In this document: one piece after another, positions 2,706-20,528 of the stretch
How positions within the stretch are numbered: the first letter of the stretch is position 1
Layout: every line of letters starts with the position of its first letter
Virus record (IMG/VR): IMGVR_UViG_2663763534_000001
Source: a virus
Lineage: Duplodnaviria; Heunggongvirae; Uroviricota; Caudoviricetes
Reading direction: 5' to 3' (one strand)
Length of the DNA stretch: 30,585 nt
The notes under the pieces: model-generated
Database searches by the model: none
What the model saw: the letters and a program-made list of their open reading frames with translations, nothing else
What the model was told of the DNA's origin: nothing
Made by a program: the position numbers and the translations under genes

Positions 2706-2866
2706 GGTATGCACTCCGTTTAATTGGTCGTGCTACCACCAGAGTTCCTACGCTCTATATGGCGGTAGCCCAGACGGGGGTAGGAATACCGGTAAACGAA
2801 GAAACCGGCCAGCTAAAAGCTGCCCCATCTGAGCCACCATAAATTTGGTGTACGCAGATTTTACAC

Positions 2867-2891
2867 ACAAAAAAACACGCTGGCGCGTGTT
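2867..2891 (-). terminator. Rho-independent terminator (minus strand)
   Basis: Hairpin aacacgc-tggc-gcgtgtt followed on the minus strand by a run of 7 T (plus-strand A7 at 2869..2875). Confidence 0.5.
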
Positions 2892-3000
2892 GTGCGCTTC
2901 ATTTACTCGGGTTCCTACGCCCGGCTACGGGATTTACCGTAGCGGAGTAAACTTTACCGTCAAAACGACGCGCACGTCAATAATTTGCAAAGACATTTTA

Positions 3001-3081: not shown

Positions 3082-3369
3082 TTATTGATTAAGAGATTGG
3101 AAATACCTAACTAACTTACCGGCATCATCACATTTTTCTTTATCTTCGTCCTTAACATAGCCGCGACAAAAGGCTGAATAAAATTTTGCATTTTCAGAAG
3201 CAAAAGCAGCCGTCGAAAGGAGCAGCTCTTTGCATGACTCTTTTGATGCAGCATCGGGATTATTTTTACATGCAAGGTCCGCTGATGAGTTAATAACAGA
3301 AATGCTATCTTCCTGGGCATAAACCGCAGCAGAAAAGGCAAAACATAAAACAAAAATAAAACTCTTCAC
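3082..3369 (-). CDS. Small secreted cysteine-containing protein with signal peptide (95 aa)
   Basis: Likely GTG start after RBS aggaga. N-terminus MKSFIFVLCFAFSAAVYA-QE is a typical Sec signal with an AxA cleavage site. Mature part is rich in Cys, Asp and Lys. Confidence 0.5.
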   Translation of the reverse strand: MKSFIFVLCFAFSAAVYAQEDSISVINSSADLACKNNPDAASKESCKELLLSTAAFASENAKFYSAFCRGYVKDEDKEKCDDAGKLVRYFQSLNQ

Positions 3370-4125: not shown

Positions 4126-4317
4126 TTACTCCCCGTTCACCGAAAATTCACGATAGAAACGTTTCCACATACGATAAGTCTGCGCAAATTGTTCACCACG
4201 AAACATCGCCTTCCTGGCCTTCATGTTTTCCTTGTGAGACTTTCGGTCTATGAACCAAAACCATTGCTGGAACACACAAAGCAAGAGACACAAAGATAAT
4301 ATCCACTCATTACCCAT
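4126..4317 (-). CDS. Hypothetical small membrane protein (63 aa)
   Basis: ATG 8 nt inside the repA 3 prime end. Hydrophobic N-terminus LSLCLLLCVFQQWFWF followed by a basic tail. Weak RBS. Confidence 0.3.
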   Translation of the reverse strand: MGNEWILSLCLLLCVFQQWFWFIDRKSHKENMKARKAMFRGEQFAQTYRMWKRFYREFSVNGE

Positions 4318-7300
4318 AGAAAGCGCCCTGCTCTTCGTAGCTGCATGAGCTATTCCCCGTAATGTATTCACGTAACCGCCGCAGCTCATTGCTGGAAAGG
4401 TGATCCATGAACTCTGTGAGGTACAGGGATGCAAACGTCATAGCTATGCTGGCTGATGACCATGATGACATAGTGGCCAACTCCTCACTGGAAAGCGCAC
4501 TCATCGCCCAGGACTCAGGTACAGCCACTGGCAACACGGCCAAAGCCTCAGAAATTACTGAATGAGGGGCGTTTTGAACCTGCTCGTTTGTGGATCGCGT
4601 TTTATCATCCATATATATATTGAGATCCAAATCGCGATCCATTTCGATGGCTGTCTTCTCGGCTTTACGCGTTTTTAGGGTTAGGCCATCTTTCTGACGC
4701 TGAACAAGAATATCCAGCATAAATGCCGCTGATTCAGGCTCAACAAAACGCAAGGTTGGACGCTTATCGCCGTCTCTGCCGCGACGTTTACCTGTTTTAA
4801 GGCCAAGAGAGTCGCAAATGTTTTTAAACAACGCTTCCGGCACTTTAGGCTTCCCTTTTGGCGTCATAAAACCACCAATGTGCAGAACGTTATTCAACAG
4901 GTCACGGCGTTCGGCTGTCATGAGGTTATCTCGAGCGAATTTGAGACGCTCCTGAGTCGCCTCGCCGGTCATAGTCTCAGGGTTGATACCGCAGTCGATA
5001 AAGTACTGCCGGAGAGTTGCTGATTTAAGCGCATAGAAACCGCGCGCCCCGACTTCAACAGTAGGAGTAGCTTTTACCTTGTGATCGATTATTCCAGGGA
5101 ATTTAGTTTTAAAGACATCATCAGCCTGCTCGCGAGTCATCGCGGTCACTACAAAATATTGCCACTGTCCCGCCTGACGGTATGCGTAGGTAAAATTGAT
5201 GGCTGCTTCTTCCCGGTCGTAACGACGAGCTGTTACCTCATCTAAAAGCATTGTTTCATAGCGGCGAACTTTGTCTCGAGCACCATCGAAATAGAATTTC
5301 AGCGTGCCTTCTTCAACCGGTAGTTTCAGTTCGTTTTCAATATCCCAGCGGACAAGTTTTGCCTGTTCTTCAAGCGTCAGCGCGCGTTTTTTTAGCAGTT
5401 CTTCACGCTCTGATTCTTGTGGAGTTTCTGTATTGAGGTGCAGATCCAGTGTCTGTTCCCACACAATATCCCGCGCTTCTTTACGCAGATCTTTACCGAT
5501 ATCATTCGCAGCATAATCGGTGGCCAGCGGTGATACCTTATAACCGTCGCTGTGCATGATGCAGATCATGTTGCTGGCGTAGTCGTTACGCGCAGTCGCT
5601 TCAATTGCGGCTGCTTTAATTTTCATCCTGGTAAAGTCGGTATTGGCCACCCCCATTGATATACGGTCGCCATCGAAAACGACATCCGTAAGTTCACCGT
5701 TCATACCTGCGGTAGCAAGCAATGCCTGGGCGAATGCTCGTTCTATTTTTTGCGGGTCAGTTTCACGTTTTGCACGAGCTTTATCAAAGCCGATAATAAA
5801 TTCTTTTGCTGTACGGTCGCGGCGTAGCATTTGCACTGCGTCGCTGGGTACAACTTCACCACAGAACATGCCGAAATGACGGTCAAAATGTTTTTGCTCA
5901 ATCGACACGCCGGATGAAATAGACGGGCTATAAATCAGGCCGTCGTATTTTTTGACCATCTTTTTCGGTTGATTGGTAAATGCTTCAACTTCTGGCTCTG
6001 GTTTGTTTTTCTGGTTTACACACAGAAATTTCTTACCAGGAAAATGCATTCTCAGGGTGGCTGTCACATCTTCTGCAAAGGTGGAGCTGTCGGTGGCCAA
6101 CATGATTTTTTCGCCATCCGATACAGCTTTCACCACCTCGGTCATGATGCGATCTTTTTCTGTATAAAAAACCCGGATTGGCTCACCTGTTTCGCGGTTG
6201 CGAACATCAACAGGTAATTCAATTACGTGGATCTGCAGCCATGCCGGTAAACCTAGTTCTTCACGGCGTTTCATAGCCAGTTCAGCCAGGTCAACCAGTA
6301 GATCGTTCGCATCAGCATCCACCATGATTGGGTGTTGTTCCGTTCTGGCCAGCGCGTCAATTAGCGTATTGAATACAGCAACCGGGTTTTCCATAGCCCG
6401 ACCGGAAAGAACGGCACGTAGCCCTTGTGTGGCCTCGTCAAAGCCAAAATAGTCGTGCTGGCGCATCAAAGGTTGCCAGCAGTTTTTAACAATCGAGTTT
6501 ATGCAGATGGTCAGTTTACTGGCGTATGGAGCCATTTCCTGATAGCCAGGGTCCTGATAGTGCAGGATATCGGCTTTTACACCTTTTCCTTCTGTCATCA
6601 TTTCCCACAGGCCACCAATAAGGGAGACACGGTGAGCAACAGAGATACCACGTTCTGAGCTATGCATTAACGGTCGTAACAATCCAGTAGATTTGCCGGA
6701 ACCCATACCAGCACGGACGATGACTATCCCCTGTAGTGATTGCACGTACTTCAGGACATCATCGGTCATTACCGAAGTTTCAAAACGCTTATAGGTGATA
6801 TGTTGAGGGCGTTTATTGGGATCAGTTATGCGTTCGCTGAAAGAGCGCGGAGCCTGGGCAATACGGCACTTTTTATTCAGGCGACGGGCAATGTGGTCTT
6901 TTACCGTAGCGCGATAGATATTTTCCAGTCCCATTTCACGCAGAACGATGCAGAACATGTTAAATAAATCTGACGGACTGTTAGGAACCGGACAGGTTAG
7001 CATGCCAATATCCACCGCTCTCAGCAGCTCTTTGGCAAAAGTACGACGGTTATCCCGCTTAATTGTCTTCAGGCGGTTGAGCGTCAGAGATAGCAAATCA
7101 GTACCGGTTTTCAGGCGGTTTGCTGTTGCAAATAGTTGACGTGCTGTTTCACGAAGTCCACGTAGTTTGTGCAGGTCGTTGAAGTCACTGCACTCCATTT
7201 GCGGATCGTCTTCAAAAGTTGGATAGACGCAGCGGACATCGTTGAATTTCGATAAGATTTCATAGCCAGTCCGCAGGCCGGTATTCCCTTTTCCTTCTGT

Positions 7301-8305
7301 GGCAGATTTCCGGTCATTATCCAGTGCGCAGGTGATTTTTGCCGCCGGGTACATGTTTACCAGTTGTTCCACAACATGAACCATGTTGTTAGCGGATACA
7401 GCGACAACCACAGCGTCAAAGCGTTTATCTTTTTTCGTGGCAAGCCAGATGGATGCACCAGTAGCAAAACCTTCTGTAACAGCGATGTTTTGCGCCCCTT
7501 TCAGCTCACCGATAACAAAGCAGGCACCGACGAAATCACCGCTGGTTACTGCGCTGGTCTGGTATTTCCCACCTTGTTTGTCGATTCGCTGCCAACCCAC
7601 AATACGACCATCATAACGACCGTCTAGGTGAGCCAGAGGGATAGCCATATATGTGGTTGGCCCCCGGCTCCATTTCGCACTGTCGTGACTGGTCACGCGA
7701 CGCACATCACATGAACTAAAAACGTCACGAATACCTTTTTTAATCGCATATGGCCATGAGCCGTCTTCAGCCTGAGCATGTTCCCACGCGCTGTGGAATG
7801 CCAGCCATCCCAGCAAACGTTCATGGTCCATTTGGTTGTTTTTCAGGTCATTAATTCGTTTTTGTTCTTCACGGCGACGACGTGCTTCGGCCTGACGTTC
7901 TATTCTTTCCCGTTCTTCTTCTGGTTGTGCGACCACGGTCGCATTATTCCGTTGTTGCTCACGGCGATATTCAGAAAACAGGAAGGAGAAACCGCTCCAT
8001 GAGCCAGCATCGCTGCCTTTATGGACGAAGTTAATGAACGGGTAATCAATCCCTTTGCTGTGTTCCAGCCTGGAGTAAATTTCTACGCGTCCTTTCAGGC
8101 TCTTTTCGAGAGCTTCTGGAGATGTTTTATTGTATGAAGAGTAACGCTCAACCCCCCCGCGAGGGTTGAGTTGGATGTTGTCGGAACAGGCAGGCCAGTT
8201 GATACCAGCCATCTGTGCCAGCTCGGTTAGTTCATCCCGTGCTGCTTCAATTAGCGAGAACGGATCGCTGCCAAAGCGATCCGCATAGAAATCGTTTAAT
8301 GTCAT
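4310..8305 (-). CDS. repA: Multifunctional replication protein RepA (primase plus helicase), N15 RepA-like
   Basis: 1331-aa ORF with a Walker A motif (VRAGMGSGKST). Size and position (between the telN side and cB) match N15 repA. Confidence 0.88.
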   Translation of the reverse strand: MTLNDFYADRFGSDPFSLIEAARDELTELAQMAGINWPACSDNIQLNPRGGVERYSSYNKTSPEALEKSLKGRVEIYSRLEHSKGIDYPFINFVHKGSDAGSWSGFSFLFSEYRREQQRNNATVVAQPEEERERIERQAEARRRREEQKRINDLKNNQMDHERLLGWLAFHSAWEHAQAEDGSWPYAIKKGIRDVFSSCDVRRVTSHDSAKWSRGPTTYMAIPLAHLDGRYDGRIVGWQRIDKQGGKYQTSAVTSGDFVGACFVIGELKGAQNIAVTEGFATGASIWLATKKDKRFDAVVVAVSANNMVHVVEQLVNMYPAAKITCALDNDRKSATEGKGNTGLRTGYEILSKFNDVRCVYPTFEDDPQMECSDFNDLHKLRGLRETARQLFATANRLKTGTDLLSLTLNRLKTIKRDNRRTFAKELLRAVDIGMLTCPVPNSPSDLFNMFCIVLREMGLENIYRATVKDHIARRLNKKCRIAQAPRSFSERITDPNKRPQHITYKRFETSVMTDDVLKYVQSLQGIVIVRAGMGSGKSTGLLRPLMHSSERGISVAHRVSLIGGLWEMMTEGKGVKADILHYQDPGYQEMAPYASKLTICINSIVKNCWQPLMRQHDYFGFDEATQGLRAVLSGRAMENPVAVFNTLIDALARTEQHPIMVDADANDLLVDLAELAMKRREELGLPAWLQIHVIELPVDVRNRETGEPIRVFYTEKDRIMTEVVKAVSDGEKIMLATDSSTFAEDVTATLRMHFPGKKFLCVNQKNKPEPEVEAFTNQPKKMVKKYDGLIYSPSISSGVSIEQKHFDRHFGMFCGEVVPSDAVQMLRRDRTAKEFIIGFDKARAKRETDPQKIERAFAQALLATAGMNGELTDVVFDGDRISMGVANTDFTRMKIKAAAIEATARNDYASNMICIMHSDGYKVSPLATDYAANDIGKDLRKEARDIVWEQTLDLHLNTETPQESEREELLKKRALTLEEQAKLVRWDIENELKLPVEEGTLKFYFDGARDKVRRYETMLLDEVTARRYDREEAAINFTYAYRQAGQWQYFVVTAMTREQADDVFKTKFPGIIDHKVKATPTVEVGARGFYALKSATLRQYFIDCGINPETMTGEATQERLKFARDNLMTAERRDLLNNVLHIGGFMTPKGKPKVPEALFKNICDSLGLKTGKRRGRDGDKRPTLRFVEPESAAFMLDILVQRQKDGLTLKTRKAEKTAIEMDRDLDLNIYMDDKTRSTNEQVQNAPHSVISEALAVLPVAVPESWAMSALSSEELATMSSWSSASIAMTFASLYLTEFMDHLSSNELRRLREYITGNSSCSYEEQGAFYG
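4591..4641. other. Candidate replication origin element inside the 3 prime end of repA
   Basis: 9-bp inverted repeat tggatcgcg / cgcgatcca flanking an AT-rich spacer containing (AT)5, with several GATC sites. N15 ori is reported to lie in the 3 prime part of repA. Confidence 0.3.
7685..7698. repeat. Palindrome CGTGAC-TG-GTCACG (GTGAC-N2-GTCAC family) inside repA
   Basis: Perfect 6-2-6 inverted repeat sharing its core with the sites at 3001 and 12939. Confidence 0.45.
7928..7943. other. sopC-like centromere palindrome TGCGACC-AC-GGTCGCA (copy 1, inside repA)
   Basis: Perfect 7-2-7 palindrome with the same architecture as the F sopC SopB-binding repeat (TGGGACC-AC-GGTCCCA). Five copies in the window. 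Confidence 0.6.
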
Positions 8306-9238: not shown

Positions 9239-9460
9239 ATGAAACCAGAAGAACTTATTCGCCATTTTGGCAGTGTAGAAAAAGCAGCGGCAGGGGTAGG
9301 TGTAACACCCGGAGCTGTTTACCAATGGTTAACCGCTGGAGAGATTCCTTCATTGCGGCAAAGCGATATTGAAGTTCGTACTGCTTATAAGCTGAAGAGT
9401 GACTTTACAACTCGGCGGGTAAAGCAGTCGATTAAGGAGAGTCGTAAGCGTGGAGCTTGA
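9239..9460 (+). CDS. cro: Cro-like HTH regulator
   Basis: 73-aa ORF divergent from cB with an HTH segment (GSVEKAAAGVGVTPGAVYQWLTAGE). ATG at 9239 preferred over the TTG at 9212 given in the ORF track; RBS is weak. Confidence 0.65.
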   Translation: MKPEELIRHFGSVEKAAAGVGVTPGAVYQWLTAGEIPSLRQSDIEVRTAYKLKSDFTTRRVKQSIKESRKRGA

Positions 9461-10160
9461 GTATATACGCAGCTGCGTCTCTACGGCATTGGCTGATGTT
9501 CATTATCGCCAGCGTGGCATTCTGGAGGTCCAGCTTGAGCAGATGCGTCTCGGTAGATCAGGACGGTTTAACAATAAACCAGTCCGGTCAATCAGTGTGG
9601 GGGATGATAACTCATACGAAGTGTCCGTTCCTGCTGAGCCGGTTAGATTCCATCAGGGGAAAACATTTAAACAATCATCAATGTTGCTCACTGATATTGA
9701 TTTTCAGAGCGCCAGCTGGCGCAGGGCTATTGGTCAGTTGAATAACGAGGAATCAGCCTGGCTTTATTATTGCTACGGATGCAAGCCTGATTACAACAAT
9801 GATGTGATTGTTTGTCAGTGGTTATGGCTTGATTTTCTGGTTGCTCATTCGGGGGGCGGCTTTAAAAAAATGAAGGCCTCCACGAAAAAAGCCATGCGGA
9901 AATTGATTTATTACGCGGCACAACAGGTTAAATCAGAACTTACGTGTGCTGAGGCAGTTGATGAGAGAGAACAGGACAGGCATCTGAGTTTTCTACTGAA
10001 TATATCTATTGATAGCTGGAGACAAGATTATAAAGAACGCTGGCTTTTAATTAAGTCGCGATGTCTGAGCTTAAATCGAACCGCATTATTAAATGCGGCG
10101 GAGAAGCGCAGTGAAATCATCAAACGCCATCGGGCAGGAAGTGCCATTCTGCCTTTGTAA
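9450..10160 (+). CDS. Putative late-gene regulator (Q-like antiterminator candidate by position)
   Basis: 236-aa ORF overlapping the cro stop, in the position of N15 Q (cB-cro-Q). No motif confidently recognised; call is by synteny. Confidence 0.35.
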   Translation: MELEYIRSCVSTALADVHYRQRGILEVQLEQMRLGRSGRFNNKPVRSISVGDDNSYEVSVPAEPVRFHQGKTFKQSSMLLTDIDFQSASWRRAIGQLNNEESAWLYYCYGCKPDYNNDVIVCQWLWLDFLVAHSGGGFKKMKASTKKAMRKLIYYAAQQVKSELTCAEAVDEREQDRHLSFLLNISIDSWRQDYKERWLLIKSRCLSLNRTALLNAAEKRSEIIKRHRAGSAILPL

Positions 10161-10413
10161 ACAAGTTATGTTCAGGAAACCGTCGAAGCCAGAATTAAGG
10201 TATTCGGGGGTAAGAAATGAATATGTTATTTGGTGTCCAACTTGTGGTTACAGGACACGACCAGATAGTAATAAGCAGTCTGTAATTGCCGATTGGTATT
10301 TATCAAATCAGCCAGGTAATAAGCATATAGAAAATCTTTGGATTAAGCGTTACTTGGAAATCAGAGGGGGTGCGACCGTGGTCGCACAAGAAAATGAAAA
10401 TAACGCCATTTAA
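10093..10413 (+). CDS. Zinc-ribbon protein, possibly Lar-family (restriction alleviation); start uncertain
   Basis: Contains C.C...WCPTCG Cys pairs typical of small phage zinc ribbons. 5 prime end overlaps the Q-like gene. A sopC-like site lies in its 3 prime end. Confidence 0.3.
   Translation: MRRRSAVKSSNAIGQEVPFCLCKQVMFRKPSKPELRYSGVRNEYVIWCPTCGYRTRPDSNKQSVIADWYLSNQPGNKHIENLWIKRYLEIRGGATVVAQENENNAI
10371..10386. other. sopC-like centromere palindrome TGCGACC-GT-GGTCGCA (copy 2)
   Basis: Perfect 7-2-7 palindrome identical to the other copies apart from centre orientation. Confidence 0.6.
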
Positions 10414-13445: not shown

Positions 13446-13733
13446 TCAATAGACGGCATTAATATTAATTGTTGCGCCACATGCTTGGGCATATTTTGAT
13501 AAAGTTTTCATGCTTGCCCCTAAAGGATTGCTTTCCAGGCGGCTGATGGCGGACGGGCGCAATCCCATTCGTTCTGCCAGAGCTGACTTCGTTAAACCTG
13601 CTCTTTCCCTCATTTCGTATAACATTTCGACCATCTCCAGTTCTTTATCGGCCTCTTCATATCCTTTGATAGCTTCTGGAGTGTTGAGTAGTTTTTCCTT
13701 TACTTCGTTAAACGGGATGCCTTTTGCTTTCAT
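13446..13733 (-). CDS. HTH XRE-family antitoxin (HigA-like)
   Basis: 95-aa ORF with HTH (LTKSALAERMGLRPSAISRLE). Start overlaps the toxin stop (ATGA) and it lies downstream of the toxin, i.e. HigBA-type order. Confidence 0.7.
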   Translation of the reverse strand: MKAKGIPFNEVKEKLLNTPEAIKGYEEADKELEMVEMLYEMRERAGLTKSALAERMGLRPSAISRLESNPLGASMKTLSKYAQACGATININAVY

Positions 13734-14044
13734 CAGTTCATCTCCTTCAGGCGAGTTCTGGCGATTTCTATAGCCTTTACTGGTGTTTTCTGTGTCTTTT
13801 TTACAAATGCATGCAATAGATAAATTTCGTTACCAGTCGCGTAGGCGTATAGCGTTCTTGCGATGTTTTTATCCCCTACTCTTAGTTCAAAGAGTCCTCC
13901 GCCTATTACACGGCTATGGGGCATCTTAAGTTTGTTTCCCTCTTTCTCCAGTCGTTCAATTAGCCTGGTCATGCGACCTCGCAGATCGTCTGGTAGTTCA
14001 AGCAGTTCATCCAGTGCTGCAGGGTGGGTTATCACGTTAAACAT
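13733..14044 (-). CDS. RelE/HigB-superfamily toxin of the phage Gp49-like family
   Basis: ATG at 14044 with RBS ggagg. 103-aa protein (MFNVITHPAALDEL...YLLHAFVKKTQKTP) typical of Gp49-like/HigB toxins. Coupled to the downstream HTH antitoxin. Confidence 0.7.
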   Translation of the reverse strand: MFNVITHPAALDELLELPDDLRGRMTRLIERLEKEGNKLKMPHSRVIGGGLFELRVGDKNIARTLYAYATGNEIYLLHAFVKKTQKTPVKAIEIARTRLKEMN

Positions 14045-14102
14045 ATTATAGCCTCCTAACGCGCAAAATACACCAAAACGAGAAAACAAAGCAAATATAA
14101 AA

Positions 14103-14673: not shown

Positions 14674-14695
14674 CTGTGCGACCACGGTCGCACAG
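14674..14695. other. sopC-like centromere palindrome (copy 3), extended 22-bp form CTGTGCGACC-AC-GGTCGCACAG
   Basis: Perfect 10-2-10 palindrome; core TGCGACCACGGTCGCA at 14677..14692. Confidence 0.6.
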
Positions 14696-16879: not shown

Positions 16880-17343
16880 GCAGGGTAACCGCGATTATCT
16901 CCGCTCTGGTTATCGGCATCATCGTCTGCTTGTCGTGGGCTGTTAATCATTACCGTGATAACGCCATCGCCTACAAAGAGCAGCGCGACAAAAACGCCAG
17001 AGAGCTGAAGCAGGCGACCGCCACCATTACTGACATGCAGCAGCGCCAGCGTGCTGCTGATGCACTCGATGCTAAATACACGAAGGAGTTAGCCAATGCG
17101 AAAGCTGAAAATGATGCTCTTCGGCGTAAGCTTGATAATGGTGGTCGGGTGCTCGTCAAAGGAAAATGCCCTGTGCCAGCCTCAGCCAAAACCTCCAGCG
17201 CCTCCGGCATGGGCAATGATGCCACCGTCGAACTCTCTTCAGTTGCTGGACGAAACGTTCTCGGTATCCGGGACGGAATTATCCGCGACCAAACAGCACT
17301 GAGAACGCTTCAGGAATACATCAATACGCAATGCCTGAATTAA
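16876..17343 (+). CDS. Rz: i-spanin Rz
   Basis: ATGA overlap with the endolysin. N-terminal TM segment, coiled-coil region, and an embedded Rz1 ORF. Confidence 0.75.
17096..17302 (+). CDS. Rz1: o-spanin Rz1 (lipoprotein), embedded in the +1 frame of Rz
   Basis: RBS ggag. Lipobox LIMVVGC-SS followed by a Pro-rich segment ([16 protein letters not shown]). Wholly inside Rz. Confidence 0.7.
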
Positions 17344-17384
17344 TCCCTCTGTATCAAAAACGAACTCAATTTGTTGGATAGTGA

Positions 17385-17696
17385 ATGAAAATTTATATTG
17401 CCGGGCCAATGACGGGATATGAGAACTTTAATCGTGACGCCTTTAATAAAGAGGCAGATCGTTTGTCACGACATGGTCACTCTGTCTTGAATCCAGCCAC
17501 TTTGCCTAATGGTCTGACACAACGTGAATACATGGATATTTGCTTTGCAATGCTTCGTTGTGCGGATGCTATTTTGATGCTTCCTGGCTGGAAAGCGTCT
17601 GCTGGAGCAACTGCTGAGTATCATTACGCATACAAGATGGAGATGCCGGTATTCACTACGCTGAATTACCCGCCAGCTTGTTCCTCTGCAGTATAA
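17385..17696 (+). CDS. Nucleoside 2-deoxyribosyltransferase-like / DUF4406-family protein
   Basis: 103-aa protein beginning MKIYIAGPMTG, a motif I associate with this family. Confidence 0.45.
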   Translation: MKIYIAGPMTGYENFNRDAFNKEADRLSRHGHSVLNPATLPNGLTQREYMDICFAMLRCADAILMLPGWKASAGATAEYHYAYKMEMPVFTTLNYPPACSSAV

Positions 17697-17743
17697 AAAT
17701 CTCTTTGTTTCTCGTGTGCGATCGTGGTCGCTCGCTAAATTCC

Positions 17744-17954
17744 GCGCTGCATCGTCGCCGTATTCCCGCATTAACTATGACCGTAGCCCGACGGGGAACT
17801 CCTCTGCGCGAGTGTGCGGAAATAATCAAAAACGATGCACACCGGGTTTTTACCGCGCTAATGATTCGCGGGTTTGTCCCTCATGCTCGCTAGTCCTGTG
17901 CGAGGGTGGAAGAAACAGGGCATGTATTCAGGAGCGTGCGACCGTGGTCGCACG
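17744..17954 (+). repeat. Direct repeat copy A (~211 bp, ~95 percent identical to copy B) ending in a sopC-like site
   Basis: Aligns base for base with 19528..19738 with about 10 substitutions. Contains a sopC-like palindrome at its 3 prime end. Confidence 0.8.
17937..17952. other. sopC-like centromere palindrome (copy 4)
   Basis: TGCGACC-GT-GGTCGCA within repeat copy A, 25 bp upstream of the cassette gene start. Confidence 0.6.
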
Positions 17955-17976
17955 GTATCTTTGTCAGGAGGTTTTG

Positions 17977-18837
17977 ATGAAAGAGTTGCAAAAAATTAAT
18001 TCAATAATGGAACGATTAATTGCTCTTGAGCTTAAGCTGGCCGATTGCGGAAAACTGTGTGCTGAAAAGCAAAATGAGCTTTACCGGGAATTTGTTACAA
18101 TCGTAAGTGAGCTGATGCCAATTGTTAATAACTGCCTAATGACATCCAGATTTTTTAATGTCGATGCTACTACATCCAGAAAATTTACTGTGAAAATTCA
18201 AGAAAGAGTTTCTGGTAGTGTGACAAGAGAGATGGCTGAACAGTTTGTGGCAATGAGTAATAAAACAAAAAGAAAAAAGGCATTGCTTGTAACAGTAAAT
18301 CAGCTTTCAGGGCGCGTTGACTTTCAGGTCAGACAGGGTGGGCGTGTACTGGTAAACGATGCGTTCGTTGGACGTTGCTTTAGTCCTTACTCGATGAAAT
18401 ATGATGTTGATGCAGATGATCAGGATATCAGCATTTCCTGGAAATCTGAGACAGCAGGGATTGTATTAACAGCAGAGTTGTTGAGTGATGATAAAAATGA
18501 TGGCCAGCATCATTTGGACGAAAAAAATCATATTTCTGAAATTTGTATGAAGCCACGTAGTGGAATGACTTTATTGTCGCGAACTCTTGCTGCTGGCTTT
18601 TCTGCAACGGAGAAACGTGTGCTTCTGGTAGTGCCTGAAGATGCAGATATTCGTCCACTGAATGGCTGTGATGTTATTAGTGCAAAAACATTGCATACCC
18701 GCATCATGCCTGTACCGGATGTGGTCATCATTGATGATATTGAGAAATGCAAGTCTGTTTCCTCAACTGCCACAATCAAACGAATTTTACGTTGTAGCAC
18801 GTCGGCTGTTGTATTCCAGAAGCAGTTACATAACTAA
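17977..18837 (+). CDS. Hypothetical protein (286 aa), first gene of a low-GC two-gene cassette; no family recognised
   Basis: ATG at 17977 with strong RBS caggagg. The longer ORF-track version (from 17716) runs through the repeat element and is unlikely. Coding sequence is AT-rich compared with the flanking lambda-like genes. Confidence 0.55.
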   Translation: MKELQKINSIMERLIALELKLADCGKLCAEKQNELYREFVTIVSELMPIVNNCLMTSRFFNVDATTSRKFTVKIQERVSGSVTREMAEQFVAMSNKTKRKKALLVTVNQLSGRVDFQVRQGGRVLVNDAFVGRCFSPYSMKYDVDADDQDISISWKSETAGIVLTAELLSDDKNDGQHHLDEKNHISEICMKPRSGMTLLSRTLAAGFSATEKRVLLVVPEDADIRPLNGCDVISAKTLHTRIMPVPDVVIIDDIEKCKSVSSTATIKRILRCSTSAVVFQKQLHN

Positions 18838-18961
18838 CCAGTTTTGTTTTGCAGAACATCCTCAACTAAAAGCTTATAGAAAGAGAGCCTGAGATATTTT
18901 TTTTCTGTCTCTCGTAGTTGTTTATTTTTTCGAACAGGCTTACAACTTACAGGATATATAC

Positions 18962-19411
18962 ATGCAAGAAGAAGCAAAGAAAATTCTTGTTGATTTATTG
19001 AACAATGCCAGCGATGGAATTGATTCCGCCATTGCATTCAGTCAGGCTCAGATTCCGGATGTTGTTCATCAGTTGCTGGTATGGAATATAGTTGATAGTC
19101 TGATTAAAACATTAATAGCCATTTCAACAATCCCGCTGGTTATTTGGTTTATGAAGAAACAGTGCAAAAAAGTTGAAATTGGTAAGTTCGATAATGACGG
19201 ACGCTCATGTGATAATGGACAGCCTAAATACAAACCGACTATGATTTGGGAAAGTGACGGTAGGTTAAGTGCTTTTGTCTTACCATTAGTAGCAGTTTTT
19301 ATTCTATGGTTAAGTTTTATTATTTCTATAGTAGCCAATATGACATGGTTAAAAATCTGGCTGGCACCTAAGTTATATCTAATCGAATACGCAGCATCAC
19401 TAATTAAATAG
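18962..19411 (+). CDS. Hypothetical integral membrane protein (149 aa, 2-3 predicted TM helices)
   Basis: Hydrophobic segments (LIKTLIAISTIPLVIWFM, AFVLPLVAVFILWLSFIISIVA). AT-rich. Weak RBS. Confidence 0.5.
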   Translation: MQEEAKKILVDLLNNASDGIDSAIAFSQAQIPDVVHQLLVWNIVDSLIKTLIAISTIPLVIWFMKKQCKKVEIGKFDNDGRSCDNGQPKYKPTMIWESDGRLSAFVLPLVAVFILWLSFIISIVANMTWLKIWLAPKLYLIEYAASLIK

Positions 19412-19527
19412 CCCATTACAAAAGCCATTCGCTACTGAGTGGCTTTGATAATGGCTTATACCCTACACGGGATAACTTAACTAATATCCCTTTTAACGGA
19501 TAAAGGTATTCAAGCCTGACACATTAT

Positions 19528-19738
19528 GCGCTGCATCGTCGCCGTATTTCCGCATTAACTATGACCGTAGCCTGACGGGGAACTCCTCTGCGCGAGTGTG
19601 TGGAAATAATCAAAAACGATGCATACCGGGTTTTTACAGCGCTAATGATTCGCGGGTTTGTCCCCCATGCTCGCCAGCTCTGTGCGGGGGTGGAAGAAAC
19701 AGGGCATGTATTCAGGAGCGTGCGACCGTGGTCGCACG
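19528..19738 (+). repeat. Direct repeat copy B (~211 bp) ending in a sopC-like site
   Basis: Partner of 17744..17954. Lies ~80 bp upstream of cos. Confidence 0.8.
19721..19736. other. sopC-like centromere palindrome (copy 5)
   Basis: TGCGACC-GT-GGTCGCA within repeat copy B. Confidence 0.6.
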
Positions 19739-19819
19739 ACGCTGGTCTGTCAGACATTGAATTCATTGCGAATAAACCAGAACGCCTGCGGGTCCTTTCC
19801 GGCGATCCGGCAGGCTACG

Positions 19820-19831
19820 GGGCGGAAGGCG
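19820..19831 (+). other. cosN-like cohesive-end site (variant of the lambda GGGCGGCGACCT)
   Basis: Flanks match the lambda cos region as I recall it (caggctacg | gggcggaaggcg | cgcgggttttcgctatttatgaaaattttccggtttaaggcg). The 12-nt core differs from canonical lambda at about 5 positions. Confidence 0.55.
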
Positions 19832-19928
19832 CGCGGGTTTTCGCTATTTATGAAAATTTTCCGGTTTAAGGCGTTTCCGTTCTTCTTCGCCGTAACTTAA
19901 TGTTTTTATTTAAAACACCCCCTGAAAA

Positions 19929-19983
19929 GAAAGGAAACGACAGATGCTGAAAACGGGCTTTTTGTCCTCTGTCGTTTCCTTTC
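19929..19983. other. cosB-like region with inverted Nu1-binding R elements
   Basis: Inverted repeat gaaaggaaacgacag ... ctgtcgtttcctttc as in lambda cosB (R3/R2), immediately upstream of Nu1. Confidence 0.55.
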
Positions 19984-20008
19984 TCTGTTTTTGTCCGTGG
20001 AATGAACA

Positions 20009-20528
20009 ATGGAAGTCAACAAAAAGCAGCTGGCTGATATTTTCGGTGCGAGTATCCGTACCATTCAGAACTGGCAGGAGCAGGGAATGCCCGTTCTGCG
20101 AGGCGGTGGCAAGGGTAATGAGGTGCTTTATGATTCTGCCGCCGTCATAAAATGGTATGCCGAAAGGGATGCTGAAATTGAGAACGAAAAGCTGCGCCGG
20201 GAGGTTGAAGAACTGCGGCTGGCCAGCGAGGCAGATCTTCACCCCGGAACACTTGAATTTGAGCGCCATCGCCTGACTCGTGCTCAGGCGACGGCGCAGG
20301 AACTGAAAAATGCCAAAGAATCGGCTGAAGTGGTGGAAACCGCATTCTGTACTTTCGTGCTGTCGCGTATAGCAAGGGAAATATCCAGTATTCTCGACGG
20401 TATTCCTCTGTCGGTGCAGCGACGTTTTCCTGAGCTGGATAACCGGCATATTGATTTCCTGAAACGGGATATCATCAAAGCCATGAACAAAGCAGCCGCG
20501 CTGGATGAACTGATACCGGGGTTGCTGA

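What the first reader, a model, noticed from the sequence alone, without database searches (positions are those of the whole stretch)
17744..19738. Pair of ~211-bp direct repeats (about 95 percent identical), each ending in a centromere-like palindrome, bracketing the cassette
Copies at 17744..17954 and 19528..19738 differ at about 10 positions, so they are old enough to have diverged yet are conserved. Each ends with TGCGACCGTGGTCGCA. Copy A lies upstream of the cassette and copy B upstream of cos and the head genes. I recall a related sequence (..attaactatg.cc..ctgacggggaact.ctctgcg.gagtgt..) in the right arm of lambda. The element could be a structured regulatory RNA or leader of the C4/CI antisense-RNA type, a late promoter with SopB-responsive control, or simply a recombination substrate that can delete the cassette.
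Basis: partly seen in the sequence, partly recalled or inferred. Interest (0 to 1): 0.75.

Follow-up and report, generated by a model that had tools for sequence, protein, structure and literature searches.

The report
Duplicated lambdoid junction element with centromere sites
Two 95%-identical copies of a non-coding element also found in phage lambda, each followed by an N15-type plasmid-partition (SopB) site, flank a two-gene accessory cassette in a linear plasmid-prophage; this looks like ordinary recombination-driven mosaicism, though the element may be an undescribed structured RNA.

Summary
17744-17954 and 19528-19738 are 211 nt with 10 mismatches, and each ends in TGCGACCGTGGTCGCA.

The unit has two parts.
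1. "X" is a ~185-nt non-coding element (17741-17925 and 19525-19709). It occurs in more than 420 E. coli/Shigella lambdoid phage records, including lambda (about 46.87-47.0 kb). In 121 surveyed loci it always lies in the late-operon sense, between the lysis genes and the packaging genes.
2. The palindrome matches the core of N15's SopB-binding centromere sites IR1/IR4.

The copies bracket a two-gene accessory cassette of unknown function. Relatives carry the same block, a deleted form, another small gene, or a single hybrid X with no cassette. That hybrid is what recombination between the two copies would produce. In lambda and in the Sakai prophages, other accessory genes sit right at X's 3' end. 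The repeat is therefore a product of, and substrate for, homologous recombination at a module junction.

X shows conserved hairpins with compensatory and G:U changes that favour a plus-strand RNA. It has no Rfam match, its folding energy is unremarkable, and its function is unknown.

The C4-type RNA and late-promoter readings are not supported. Interest is moderate to low.

The parts
17717..17732 (.). Degenerate SopB-type palindrome (TGCGATCGTGGTCGCT, 2 mismatches), the positional counterpart of N15 IR4
   Evidence: It is perfect in YDC107_1, RL465 plasmid III and pZ1323HEC0355-3. Its flanks resemble those of N15 IR4.
17741..17925 (+). X copy A, the conserved lambdoid lysis/packaging junction element. 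Predicted hairpins: P1 17749-17755/17832-17838, P2 17761-17771/17814-17824, P5 17893-17899/17915-17921
   Evidence: Covariance model built here, 212.8 bits. Homology to lambda and 424 phage records. Structure and covariation.
17937..17952 (.). Perfect N15-type SopB-binding palindrome attached to copy A; it also scores as a terminator-like hairpin
17977..18837 (+). Cassette gene 1 (286 aa), phage family phrog_2571, function unknown
   Evidence: No Pfam or PADLOC hit.
18962..19411 (+). Cassette gene 2 (149 aa), phrog_3054, function unknown; hydrophobic stretches suggest a membrane protein (read from the sequence only)
   Evidence: No Pfam or PADLOC hit. A 75%-identical homologue precedes a single X in L071.
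19413..19522 (+). Conserved spacer upstream of copy B. It contains hairpin 19421-19446 and a 21-nt stretch (19499-19519) identical to the 3' end, with stop codon, of a Rha-family gene
   Evidence: The spacer is shared with Ayreon and L071. The 21-nt stretch matches the end of the Rha gene of the SC477 prophage.
19525..19709 (+). X copy B
   Evidence: Covariance model, 207.1 bits. 100% identical copies in plasmid pAH01-1 and in an integrated prophage of strain CUVM3.
19721..19736 (.). Perfect N15-type SopB-binding palindrome attached to copy B, 84 nt upstream of the cos cohesive end
   Evidence: The same X-palindrome-cos arrangement occurs in L144, L049, L119 and SC477.
19820..19831 (+). cos cohesive-end sequence (GGGCGGAAGGCG), placed by alignment with the lambda-type GGGCGGCGACCT
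7928..7943 (.). SopB palindrome inside repA; flanks match N15 IR1
10371..10386 (.). SopB palindrome about 210 nt downstream of the Q gene; flanks match N15 IR2
14677..14692 (.). SopB palindrome upstream of the methylase and lysis genes (IR3 by position only; the flanks are not alike)

Best explanation
The window is the prophage form of an N15-like linear plasmid-prophage with a lambda-like late region. Each repeat unit is a composite of two parts.

The first part, 'X', is a ~185-nt non-coding element that marks the boundary between the lysis module and the packaging module in E. coli/Shigella lambdoid phages, lambda included. The second part is an N15-type SopB-binding palindrome.

The two units bracket a two-gene accessory cassette. 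The arrangement arose by recombination between phage genomes that each carried X. The left side (DUF4406 gene, IR4, X, palindrome, gene 1) is of the plasmid-prophage type. The right side (gene 2, spacer, X, palindrome, cos) is also found in ordinary integrated lambdoid prophages.

Shown here:
- Both flanks of X are recurrent insertion points for accessory genes.
- Genomes with a single hybrid X and no cassette exist. Recombination between the two copies would produce exactly this.

Inferred:
- The palindromes bind SopB and act as extra partition sites. They may compensate for the decayed IR4 copy at 17717.
- X is transcribed only as part of the late operon. It folds into a long bipartite hairpin plus a 3' hairpin. 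It most likely acts in cis on the late mRNA, as a processing or 3'-end-stabilising boundary between the lysis and packaging messages, while its conservation also makes it a homology patch for module exchange.

On this reading the duplication of X is a by-product of recombination, not a requirement.
For: Genome type:
- Protelomerase, repA and C4/isrK RNAs are in the window.
- Plasmid pAH01-1, which carries an identical copy B and the same cassette, encodes protelomerase, sopA and a ParB/SopB homologue.

Palindrome:
- It has the same core as N15 IR1/IR4. There are 5 perfect copies against 0.33 matches expected.
- The flanks of the 7928 and 10371 sites match N15 IR1 and IR2.

X:
- 424 phage records match, including lambda 46868-46973.
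- In 121 surveyed loci X is always in the sense orientation. In every locus that held a recognisable Rz or terminase gene, it lay downstream of Rz and upstream of terminase. The terminases are of at least two unrelated types.
- The covariance model finds exactly two copies in the window and none in the 3.9-kb lysis-to-cos segment of N15 that was fetched.
- Single-base indels and a 9-nt deletion inside the most conserved part rule out coding.

Recombination:
- PhiR46_1, L053, L124 and pCAVP367-48 have the same cassette between two X copies.
- YDC107_1 has a deleted form.
- RL465 plasmid III has a short gene-1-like gene at the same place.
- pZ1323HEC0355-3 has one X with the copy-A left flank and a copy-B-type 3' half, joined directly to cos.
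- Lambda's p78/p79 block is inserted exactly at X's 3' end, with a short GGAAGAA.C.GG duplication.
- The likely HnrS small-RNA gene sits immediately 3' of X in Sakai Sp9 and Sp10.

Structure:
- 98.6% of cells are paired, against 95.8% in shuffles. Six pairs have changes on both sides. The covariation score is 0.129 against 0.081, reached by 0 of 500 shuffles. Slid controls pair at 29-57%.
- G:U pairs occur on the plus strand at 17 pair positions, against C.A at 5.
- Sepvirinae variants lose the hairpin tip but keep the stems.
- The two window copies themselves differ by a compensatory CCCTC/GAGGG versus CCCCC/GGGGG change.
Against: - The folding energies of both copies are no better than shuffled sequence (z = -0.30 and -0.19).
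- Sequence diversity is low (effective number of sequences 1.64). The covariation therefore rests on roughly eight independent events, and about as many single disruptive changes are seen.
- X is not clearly more conserved than neighbouring coding genes where those are homologous: endolysin 91-96%, Nu1 about 93%, TerL about 99% amino-acid identity. Conservation alone does not show function.
- Perfect SopB-type palindromes next to X also occur in integrated lambdoid prophages whose annotated regions show no sop genes. The palindrome could therefore have a SopB-independent role, or be there only through recent exchange.
- No transcript, SopB-binding or stability data exist for this element.
- The direction of the event cannot be decided from sequence. 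The single-X hybrid may be the ancestral empty site rather than a deletion product.
Confidence: 0.65

Rival explanations
1. X has no molecular function. It is a neutral 'linker' that persists only because the late regions of E. coli lambdoid phages share recent ancestry and recombine constantly. The hairpins are incidental, and the repeat is purely a recombination scar.
For: - MFE z-scores are not significant.
- Effective sequence number is low.
- Neighbouring genes are equally conserved.
- X is absent from N15 itself and from Salmonella lambdoid phages that share the lysis genes.
- The 5' half of X is missing in L155 and the 3' part in L113, and an insertion splits X in L147, so the element is tolerant of damage.
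Against: - Compensatory changes occur at 6 consensus pairs, plus others in the variable middle region.
- There is a strong plus-strand G:U bias (17 versus 5 pair positions).
- Stems are retained when the hairpin tip is deleted.
- Orientation and position are invariant despite unrelated flanking genes.
Confidence: 0.25
2. X is a cis-acting RNA leader needed in front of each downstream expression unit: the cassette for copy A and the packaging genes for copy B. Examples would be an antitermination, anti-polarity or translation-enhancing element. On this view the duplication is selected.
For: - Copy A ends 24 nt before the ribosome-binding site and ATG of gene 1.
- Two full copies are kept in many independent plasmid prophages although they could recombine.
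- X lies upstream of the terminase genes in all surveyed contexts that include them.
- In lambda CRISPRi, roadblocks upstream of X (orf64, R) were not polar on head genes, while one downstream (p79) was.
Against: - In lambda and many other phages, the genes right after X are on the opposite strand (p78) or are convergent small-RNA genes.
- The distance from X to terminase varies from about 0.4 to more than 2 kb.
- Single-X genomes with other accessory genes exist.
- The CRISPRi authors attribute the anomaly to variable roadblock efficiency.
Confidence: 0.1
3. The unit is a late promoter or regulatory region under SopB control.
For: From my memory of the N15 literature (Ravin, Rech and Lane 2008, not retrievable here), Sop proteins and IR sites facilitate N15 late gene expression. 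A SopB palindrome is attached to each copy.
Against: - No sigma-70-type promoter lies in or beside either copy on either strand.
- The lambda bor promoter annotated inside X in HK630 is on the minus strand, and its -10 hexamer is not conserved here.
- The Q gene (9450-10160) and the IR2-type site just after it are 7 kb upstream, where a Q-dependent late promoter belongs.
- X occurs in hundreds of phage records, almost all of them ordinary lambdoid and Stx phages, a type in which no sop system is known.
Confidence: 0.04
4. The unit is an antisense or immunity RNA of the C4/CI or isrK type.
For: None beyond the presence of hairpins.
Against: Rfam C4 (73.6 bits) and isrK (62.5 bits) match at 2758-2943 on the minus strand, not here. 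A permissive scan of 17300-20100 gives only chance-level hits.
Confidence: 0.01
5. X is a site-specific recombination site, like an integron attC site, through which cassettes are captured by a dedicated recombinase.
For: - Structured imperfect palindromes flank a gene cassette.
- Accessory genes are repeatedly inserted at X's edges.
- A short core-like duplication (GGAAGAA.C.GG) flanks lambda p78/p79.
Against: - Junction points differ between cases: after the palindrome in the window, at the end of P5 in lambda, and within the 5' half in the pZ1323 hybrid.
- No integrase or recombinase other than protelomerase is annotated in pAH01-1.
- The single hybrid X in pZ1323, with a copy-A left flank and a copy-B-type 3' half, points to crossing-over within the shared homology.
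Confidence: 0.03
6. X encodes a small protein. Several records annotate hypothetical proteins over it.
For: ORFs of 80 aa (19524-19766, minus strand) and 89 aa (19600-19869, plus strand) overlap copy B. RefSeq and GenBank annotate such ORFs.
Against: - Neither ORF is intact at copy A.
- Single-base indels fall in the most conserved stretch across homologues.
- The plus-strand ORF runs across the cos cleavage site.
Confidence: 0.02

Closest known systems
N15 centromere sites IR1-IR4 (dispersed SopB-binding inverted repeats of the linear plasmid-prophage N15)
   Same: The palindrome core is identical (GTGCGACC-NN-GGTCGCAC). The sites are dispersed. The flanks of the 7928 and 10371 sites match N15 IR1 and IR2. 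One site (17717) lies where N15 IR4 lies, between the accessory genes that follow the lysis genes and the last gene before cos. sopA and a ParB/SopB homologue are present in a genome with an identical copy B and the same cassette.
   Different: This window has five perfect sites plus one decayed site, where N15 has four. Two of the perfect sites are attached to a lambda-derived element that the fetched lysis-to-cos segment of N15 lacks. The IR4 counterpart is degenerate. The same palindrome, with X, also occurs in integrated lambdoid prophages.
Morons and mosaic module junctions of lambdoid phages (the Hendrix/Juhala model; 'linker' sequences in the Susskind-Botstein modular theory)
   Same: There is presence/absence polymorphism of accessory genes at a fixed slot between the lysis and packaging modules. 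Conserved short sequences sit at the junctions. Related genomes differ by clean replacements.
   Different: Here the whole junction element is duplicated on both sides of the insert (211 nt, 95%), instead of the usual sharp non-homologous junction. No cassette promoter of its own was found.
Lambda bor promoter region (lambda about 46.87-46.91 kb)
   Same: HK630's annotated minus-strand promoter lies inside the 5' part of X.
   Different: The -10 hexamer (TACAAT in the lambda type) reads TACGGC in the window and in most variants, and no bor gene is present here. The promoter therefore does not explain the element's conservation.
Phage intercistronic RNA processing or stabiliser hairpins (for example T7 RNase III sites); a resemblance from general knowledge, not tested
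   Same: A long two-part hairpin with an internal loop sits between functional gene blocks of a long polycistronic late transcript.
   Different: No cleavage data exist. The hairpin here is larger (about 90 nt, with a branched tip). It is followed by a variable region and a second conserved hairpin.
Prophage small RNAs of pathogenic E. coli (AgvB, AsxR, Esr41, Pas RNAs, svsR, HnrS)
   Same: They are non-coding features of lambdoid prophages. The likely HnrS gene lies immediately next to X in Sakai Sp9 and Sp10.
   Different: X matches none of the Rfam models for these RNAs. AgvB and AsxR lie at the PR' accessory-gene site, svsR lies in cI, and the likely HnrS gene is a separate convergent gene downstream of X.

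Membership tests
N15-type SopB centromere site (IR) | Perfect 16-18-bp palindrome with the N15 core GTGCGACC NN GGTCGCAC | tested here: met
   17937-17952 and 19721-19736 are perfect. The core is identical to N15 IR1/IR4 read on the other strand.
N15-type SopB centromere site (IR) | Several dispersed copies on the same replicon at positions matching N15 IR1-IR4 | tested here: met
   Sites at 7928 (IR1 flanks), 10371 (IR2 flanks), 14677 and 17717 (IR4 position, degenerate).
N15-type SopB centromere site (IR) | Cognate sopA/sopB genes on the replicon | tested here: met
   They are not inside the window. pAH01-1, which has a 100% identical copy B and the same cassette, carries sopA and a ParB/SopB gene next to the protelomerase gene.
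N15-type SopB centromere site (IR) | SopB binding and contribution to plasmid stability | not testable with these tools
   Needs ChIP or gel-shift assays and stability assays.
Rfam C4 antisense RNA / isrK | Covariance-model match at or near the gathering score | tested here: not met
   No hit in 17300-20100 even at E <= 10. The true C4 and isrK hits are at 2758-2943 on the minus strand.
Q-dependent or sigma-70 late promoter | -35/-10 hexamers, located just downstream of the Q gene | tested here: not met
   No promoter-like site in either copy. Q is at 9450-10160.
Lambdoid lysis/packaging junction element 'X' (defined here) | Sequence and structure match to the lambda element at about 46.87-47.0 kb | tested here: met
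   BLAST matches 424 records. The covariance model scores 212.8 and 207.1 bits for the window copies, and 152-176 bits for the Sakai Sp9/Sp10 and Sepvirinae copies. Lambda-type sequences were among those used to build the model.
Lambdoid lysis/packaging junction element 'X' (defined here) | Sense orientation between the last lysis gene and the terminase genes | tested here: met
   True for both window copies, and for every one of the 121 surveyed loci that held a recognisable Rz or terminase gene.
Lambdoid lysis/packaging junction element 'X' (defined here) | Functional RNA secondary structure | tested here: inconclusive
   Covariation and plus-strand G:U bias support it. MFE z-scores of -0.3 and -0.2 and low sequence diversity do not.
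Moron (accessory gene unit) | Extra genes present or absent between otherwise collinear genomes | tested here: met
   Full cassette, deleted form, alternative gene, or nothing at the same slot.
Moron (accessory gene unit) | Own promoter and terminator | tested here: not met
   No promoter-like site upstream of gene 1. The hairpin at 19421-19446 after gene 2 lacks a clear T-run.
Site-specific cassette recombination site (integron attC-like) | Fixed crossover point and an associated recombinase | tested here: not met
   Junctions vary. No integrase is annotated in pAH01-1.

The most novel reading that the evidence does not exclude
X is an undescribed, conserved, cis-acting structured RNA of the late operon of lambda, Stx phages and E. 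coli N15-like phages. It sits at the 3' end of the lysis cassette. It consists of a bipartite ~90-nt hairpin, a variable hairpin region and a 3' hairpin with a GGAAGAAA loop. It would set mRNA processing, mRNA stability or transcription properties at the lysis/packaging boundary. Its conserved edges would act as the landing pads where accessory genes (bor, p78/p79, HnrS, this cassette) are gained and lost.
Probability: 0.3. Interest if true: 0.6.

Novelty: new member of a known kind. Interest (0 to 1): 0.35.

Why it matters
As found, this is a clear example of how accessory genes move in temperate phages. A conserved junction element supplies the homology, and the insert ends up flanked by direct repeats that can remove it again. 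It also shows lambda-type late regions, together with N15-type partition sites, passing between plasmid-borne and chromosomally integrated prophages.

If X proves to be a functional RNA, it would be a new element in the late operon of phage lambda itself, and of the Shiga-toxin phages. It would also explain why several accessory genes and small RNAs cluster at one spot.

The extra SopB sites are of some interest for understanding how dispersed centromeres are gained and lost.

Tried and rejected
- Rfam, at gathering thresholds and permissively: nothing at the repeat.
- Promoter and terminator scan: no promoter. Only the copy-A palindrome looks terminator-like.
- Genome-contig scan for diverse homologues: of 34 hits, 30 sit in taxonomically unrelated, non-enteric genome assemblies. 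Many are contigs of about 3.5 or 48 kb, and those checked are identical or nearly identical to lambda, so they are most likely lambda control-DNA contamination. Only four are Escherichia. No diversity was gained.
- Known prophage small RNAs (AgvB/AsxR, Pas RNAs, svsR, HnrS): excluded by location or by Rfam.
- Complementarity between X's hairpin tip (19565-19578) and the cos region (19807-19820; 14 nt, 93%): judged to be chance. The same X sequence accompanies unrelated terminase and cos types.
- A long-range helix between CACCGGGUUUU and GAAGAAACCGG: rejected, because P5 covaries instead.
- My early reading that YDC107_1 carries a different cassette was wrong. It carries a deleted version of the same one.
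- Search for direct repeats around lambda p78/p79: none long enough to detect automatically. The short junction duplication was seen only by alignment.
- N15 papers by Ravin and Lane (1999) and Ravin et al. (2008), the lambda review by Casjens and Hendrix, and the lambda ribosome-profiling paper could not be retrieved.
- Pfam and PADLOC gave nothing for the cassette proteins.
Full report
**Observation.** The repeat is real and the coordinates are exact. The repeat finder reports 17739-17954 and 19523-19738 as a 216-nt direct repeat at 94% identity. Both copies end in TGCGACCGTGGTCGCA. This palindrome occurs five times perfectly in the window (7928, 10371, 14677, 17937, 19721) and once in degenerate form (17717). 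Shuffled sequence gives 0.33 matches on average.

**Genome context.** The window carries a protelomerase gene (191-2104), a large repA (4310-8305, minus strand), and C4 and isrK RNAs (2758-2943, minus strand). A Q gene and lysis genes follow. Then come the repeat region, cos, and lambda-type terminase and head genes. This is the prophage form of an N15-like (Ravinvirus) linear plasmid-prophage. Plasmid pAH01-1 has a 100% identical copy B and the same cassette. It encodes protelomerase, sopA, a ParB/SopB homologue and repA.

**The palindrome.** Published oligonucleotides for the four N15 centromere sites give:
- IR1 and IR4: GTGCGACCACGGTCGCAC
- IR2: ...CCTCGG...
- IR3...CCATGG... (PMC7205306)

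The window palindrome is the IR1/IR4 core read on the other strand. The flanks of the 7928 site match N15 IR1, and those of 10371 match IR2.

In N15 itself, IR4 lies between genes 58 and 59, about 800 bp before cos, and no X element is nearby. The degenerate site at 17717 sits in the equivalent place, just after the DUF4406 gene. It is perfect in the relatives YDC107_1, RL465 plasmid III and pZ1323HEC0355-3. The two palindromes of the repeat units are therefore additional N15-type SopB sites next to a decayed IR4. Whether they bind SopB could not be tested.

**The rest of the unit (X).** Without the palindrome, the unit matches 424 phage records. These include lambda (46868-46973 for the 5' half), phage 21, HK630, many Stx1 and Stx2 phages and Shigella phages. 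I collected about 120 loci from IMG/VR, plus reference phages.

In all 121 surveyed loci X has the same orientation as the late operon. Wherever an Rz or terminase gene was recognisable in the locus, X lay downstream of Rz and upstream of terminase. In Sakai Sp9 and Sp10, X starts 12 nt after the Rz stop codon. In other phages it follows bor, a Rha/Ant-family gene, a DUF4406 gene or a homologue of cassette gene 2. The terminase genes are of the lambda Nu1/A type or of an unrelated type with 24% TerL identity.

A covariance model built from 58 distinct copies finds exactly two copies in the window (212.8 and 207.1 bits). It finds none in the 3.9-kb lysis-to-cos segment of N15 that was fetched.

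Single-base indels in the best-conserved stretch, and a 9-nt deletion in Sepvirinae phages, exclude protein coding. The hypothetical ORFs annotated over copy B are not intact at copy A.

**Is X a structured RNA?** RNAalifold predicts four main features:
- a 7-bp outer stem, P1
- an 11-bp stem, P2
- a small apical stem-loop
- a 7-bp 3' hairpin, P5, whose loop holds the invariant GGAAGAAA

On the 58 sequences, 98.6% of cells are paired, against 95.8% in shuffles. Six pairs change on both sides. The covariation score is 0.129 against 0.081, reached by 0 of 500 shuffles. Sliding the 3' partners drops pairing to 29-57%.

G:U pairs fall on the plus strand at 17 pair positions, against 5 positions where the wobble would be on the minus strand. 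This favours a plus-strand RNA over a DNA palindrome or a minus-strand RNA. The Sepvirinae variants delete the hairpin tip but keep all stems. The two window copies differ by a compensatory CCCTC/GAGGG versus CCCCC/GGGGG change in the variable middle region.

Three points count against this reading:
- The folding energies are ordinary (z = -0.30 and -0.19).
- The sequences are closely related (effective number 1.64).
- X is no better conserved than adjacent genes where those are homologous.

I rate a functional RNA fold as plausible but unproven.

Rfam has no matching family. No sigma-70 promoter is present on either strand. The minus-strand promoter annotated in HK630, which drives bor, lies in X's 5' part. 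Its -10 hexamer is specific to the lambda-type variant.

**The cassette and its junctions.** Gene 1 (17977-18837) and gene 2 (18962-19411) belong to phage protein families of unknown function. They have no Pfam or PADLOC match. The right-hand part of the arrangement is gene 2, a 110-nt conserved spacer, then X. The spacer has a hairpin and a 21-nt stretch identical to the 3' end of a Rha-family gene. This right-hand part also exists on its own in lambdoid phages (L071, Ayreon, SC477). The left-hand part (DUF4406 gene, IR4, X, palindrome, gene 1) is typical of E. coli N15-like plasmids.

Variants seen in relatives:
- PhiR46_1, L053, L124, pCAVP367-48 and others have the same two-copy arrangement. 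Their second X copy has a different 3' half and no palindrome.
- YDC107_1 has an internal deletion of the cassette.
- RL465 plasmid III has a short gene-1-like gene.
- pZ1323HEC0355-3 has a single X joined to cos. Its left flank is the copy-A flank, and its 3' half is of the type found in the second copy of PhiR46_1 and YDC107_1. This is the product expected from crossing-over between the two copies, or else the empty site.
- The window's copy B, with its palindrome and right junction, matches single-copy X-palindrome-cos phages such as L144 and the SC477 prophage. The two copies therefore come from different lineages, not from an old duplication in place.

**X's edges are general insertion points.**
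- In lambda-type phages the p78/p79 block is inserted exactly at the end of P5, with a short GGAAGAA.C.GG duplication.
- In Sakai Sp9 and Sp10 a convergent 66-nt gene with a terminator lies immediately 3' of X. After a 128-bp coordinate shift between genome versions, it coincides with the Hfq-bound RNAs EcOnc12 and EcOnc11, now named HnrS.
- bor, Rha/Ant-family genes, the DUF4406 gene and homologues of gene 2 occupy the 5' side.

**Exchange with integrated prophages.** The complete block (degenerate IR4, X, palindrome, cassette, X, palindrome, cos) is present in an ordinary integrated lambdoid prophage of strain CUVM3, where copy B is 100% identical. The SC477 prophage has X, a perfect palindrome and cos. 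In other lambdoid contexts the palindrome is degenerate (TGTGACTGTGGTCGCA) or missing; in L140 the surrounding sequence suggests loss between GGTCTGT repeats. This fits decay where SopB is absent, with recent transfer explaining the perfect copies. A SopB-independent role cannot be excluded.

**Conclusion.** The finding is a recombination-generated duplication of a composite unit: a lambdoid junction element plus an N15 centromere site. It flanks an accessory cassette and can delete it. The C4-type RNA and late-promoter ideas are rejected. The possible RNA function of X, which is present in lambda itself, is the one part that could be new.

Noticed in passing
window 2758-2943 (minus strand): Rfam C4 antisense RNA (73.6 bits) and isrK (62.5 bits) lie side by side between the protelomerase gene and repA. 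This is probably the antirepressor/immunity control region of the N15-like phage.
   Followed up: no
window 17717-17732: The SopB palindrome at the N15 IR4 position is degenerate here (2 mismatches) but perfect in close relatives. Two extra perfect sites lie within 2 kb.
   Followed up: partly
L160 18195-20214 (E. coli CUVM3 chromosome); L169 11998-12215 (E. coli SC477 chromosome): Integrated lambdoid prophages (cI/cro, O/P-type replication genes, nin region, Q) carry X followed by perfect N15-type SopB palindromes. The CUVM3 prophage has the whole cassette block, with copy B 100% identical. No sop genes appear in the annotated regions.
   Followed up: partly
L170 about 3150-3215 and L171 about 446-512 (E. 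coli O157 Sakai prophages Sp9 and Sp10), minus strand: A convergent small gene with a CUUCU motif and an intrinsic terminator lies immediately 3' of X. After a +128-bp shift between genome versions, it coincides with EcOnc12 and EcOnc11, renamed HnrS in PMC13502914. The identification is inferred from coordinates and sequence features.
   Followed up: partly
L001 1640-1660 and 2710-2740 (HK630, lambda-type): The lambda p78/p79 gene block sits exactly at X's 3' end and is bounded by an imperfect GGAAGAA.C.GG duplication. L046-type phages lack the block.
   Followed up: yes
L147 4156-4307 and 5588-5652: One IMG/VR contig has X split by an insertion of about 1.3 kb. From memory, its end resembles an IS3-family (IS629-like) terminal repeat. 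The covariance model hits both halves.
   Followed up: no
Loci L005-L038 (genome-contig scan): Thirty of the 34 exact-pattern hits are in unrelated taxa (Pseudomonas, Bacillus-group species, Flavobacterium, metagenome-assembled genomes). Many are contigs of about 3.5 or 48 kb, and those checked are identical or nearly identical to lambda. They are most likely sequencing-control lambda DNA left in public assemblies.
   Followed up: partly
Lambda late operon (literature, PMC10695390): In genome-wide CRISPRi of lambda, roadblocks in orf64 and R were not polar on the essential head genes, while a roadblock in the non-essential p79 (downstream of X) was. The authors could not explain this. It is compatible with, but no evidence for, transcription entering between R and p79.
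   Followed up: no
window 19524-19766 (minus strand) and 19600-19869 (plus strand): ORFs over copy B are annotated as hypothetical proteins in RefSeq and GenBank relatives. They are not conserved at copy A, and one crosses the cos cleavage site, so they are probably spurious.
   Followed up: partly
window 19820-19831: The cohesive-end sequence reads GGGCGGAAGGCG here, and likewise in YDC107_1, PhiR46_1, L119 and L049. Lambda-type relatives such as SC477, L144 and L140 have GGGCGGCGACCT, with otherwise near-identical flanks.
   Followed up: no
window 19928-19984: A 26-nt inverted repeat (85% complementary) lies just upstream of Nu1. From my knowledge of lambda, it corresponds to the inverted gpNu1-binding R elements of cosB. 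It caused the weak Rfam chance hits.
   Followed up: no
window 13446-14089 (minus strand): Two adjacent ORFs correspond by position to the RelE/ParE-family toxin and helix-turn-helix partner annotated in pAH01-1. This is probably a toxin-antitoxin pair on the plasmid-prophage.
   Followed up: no
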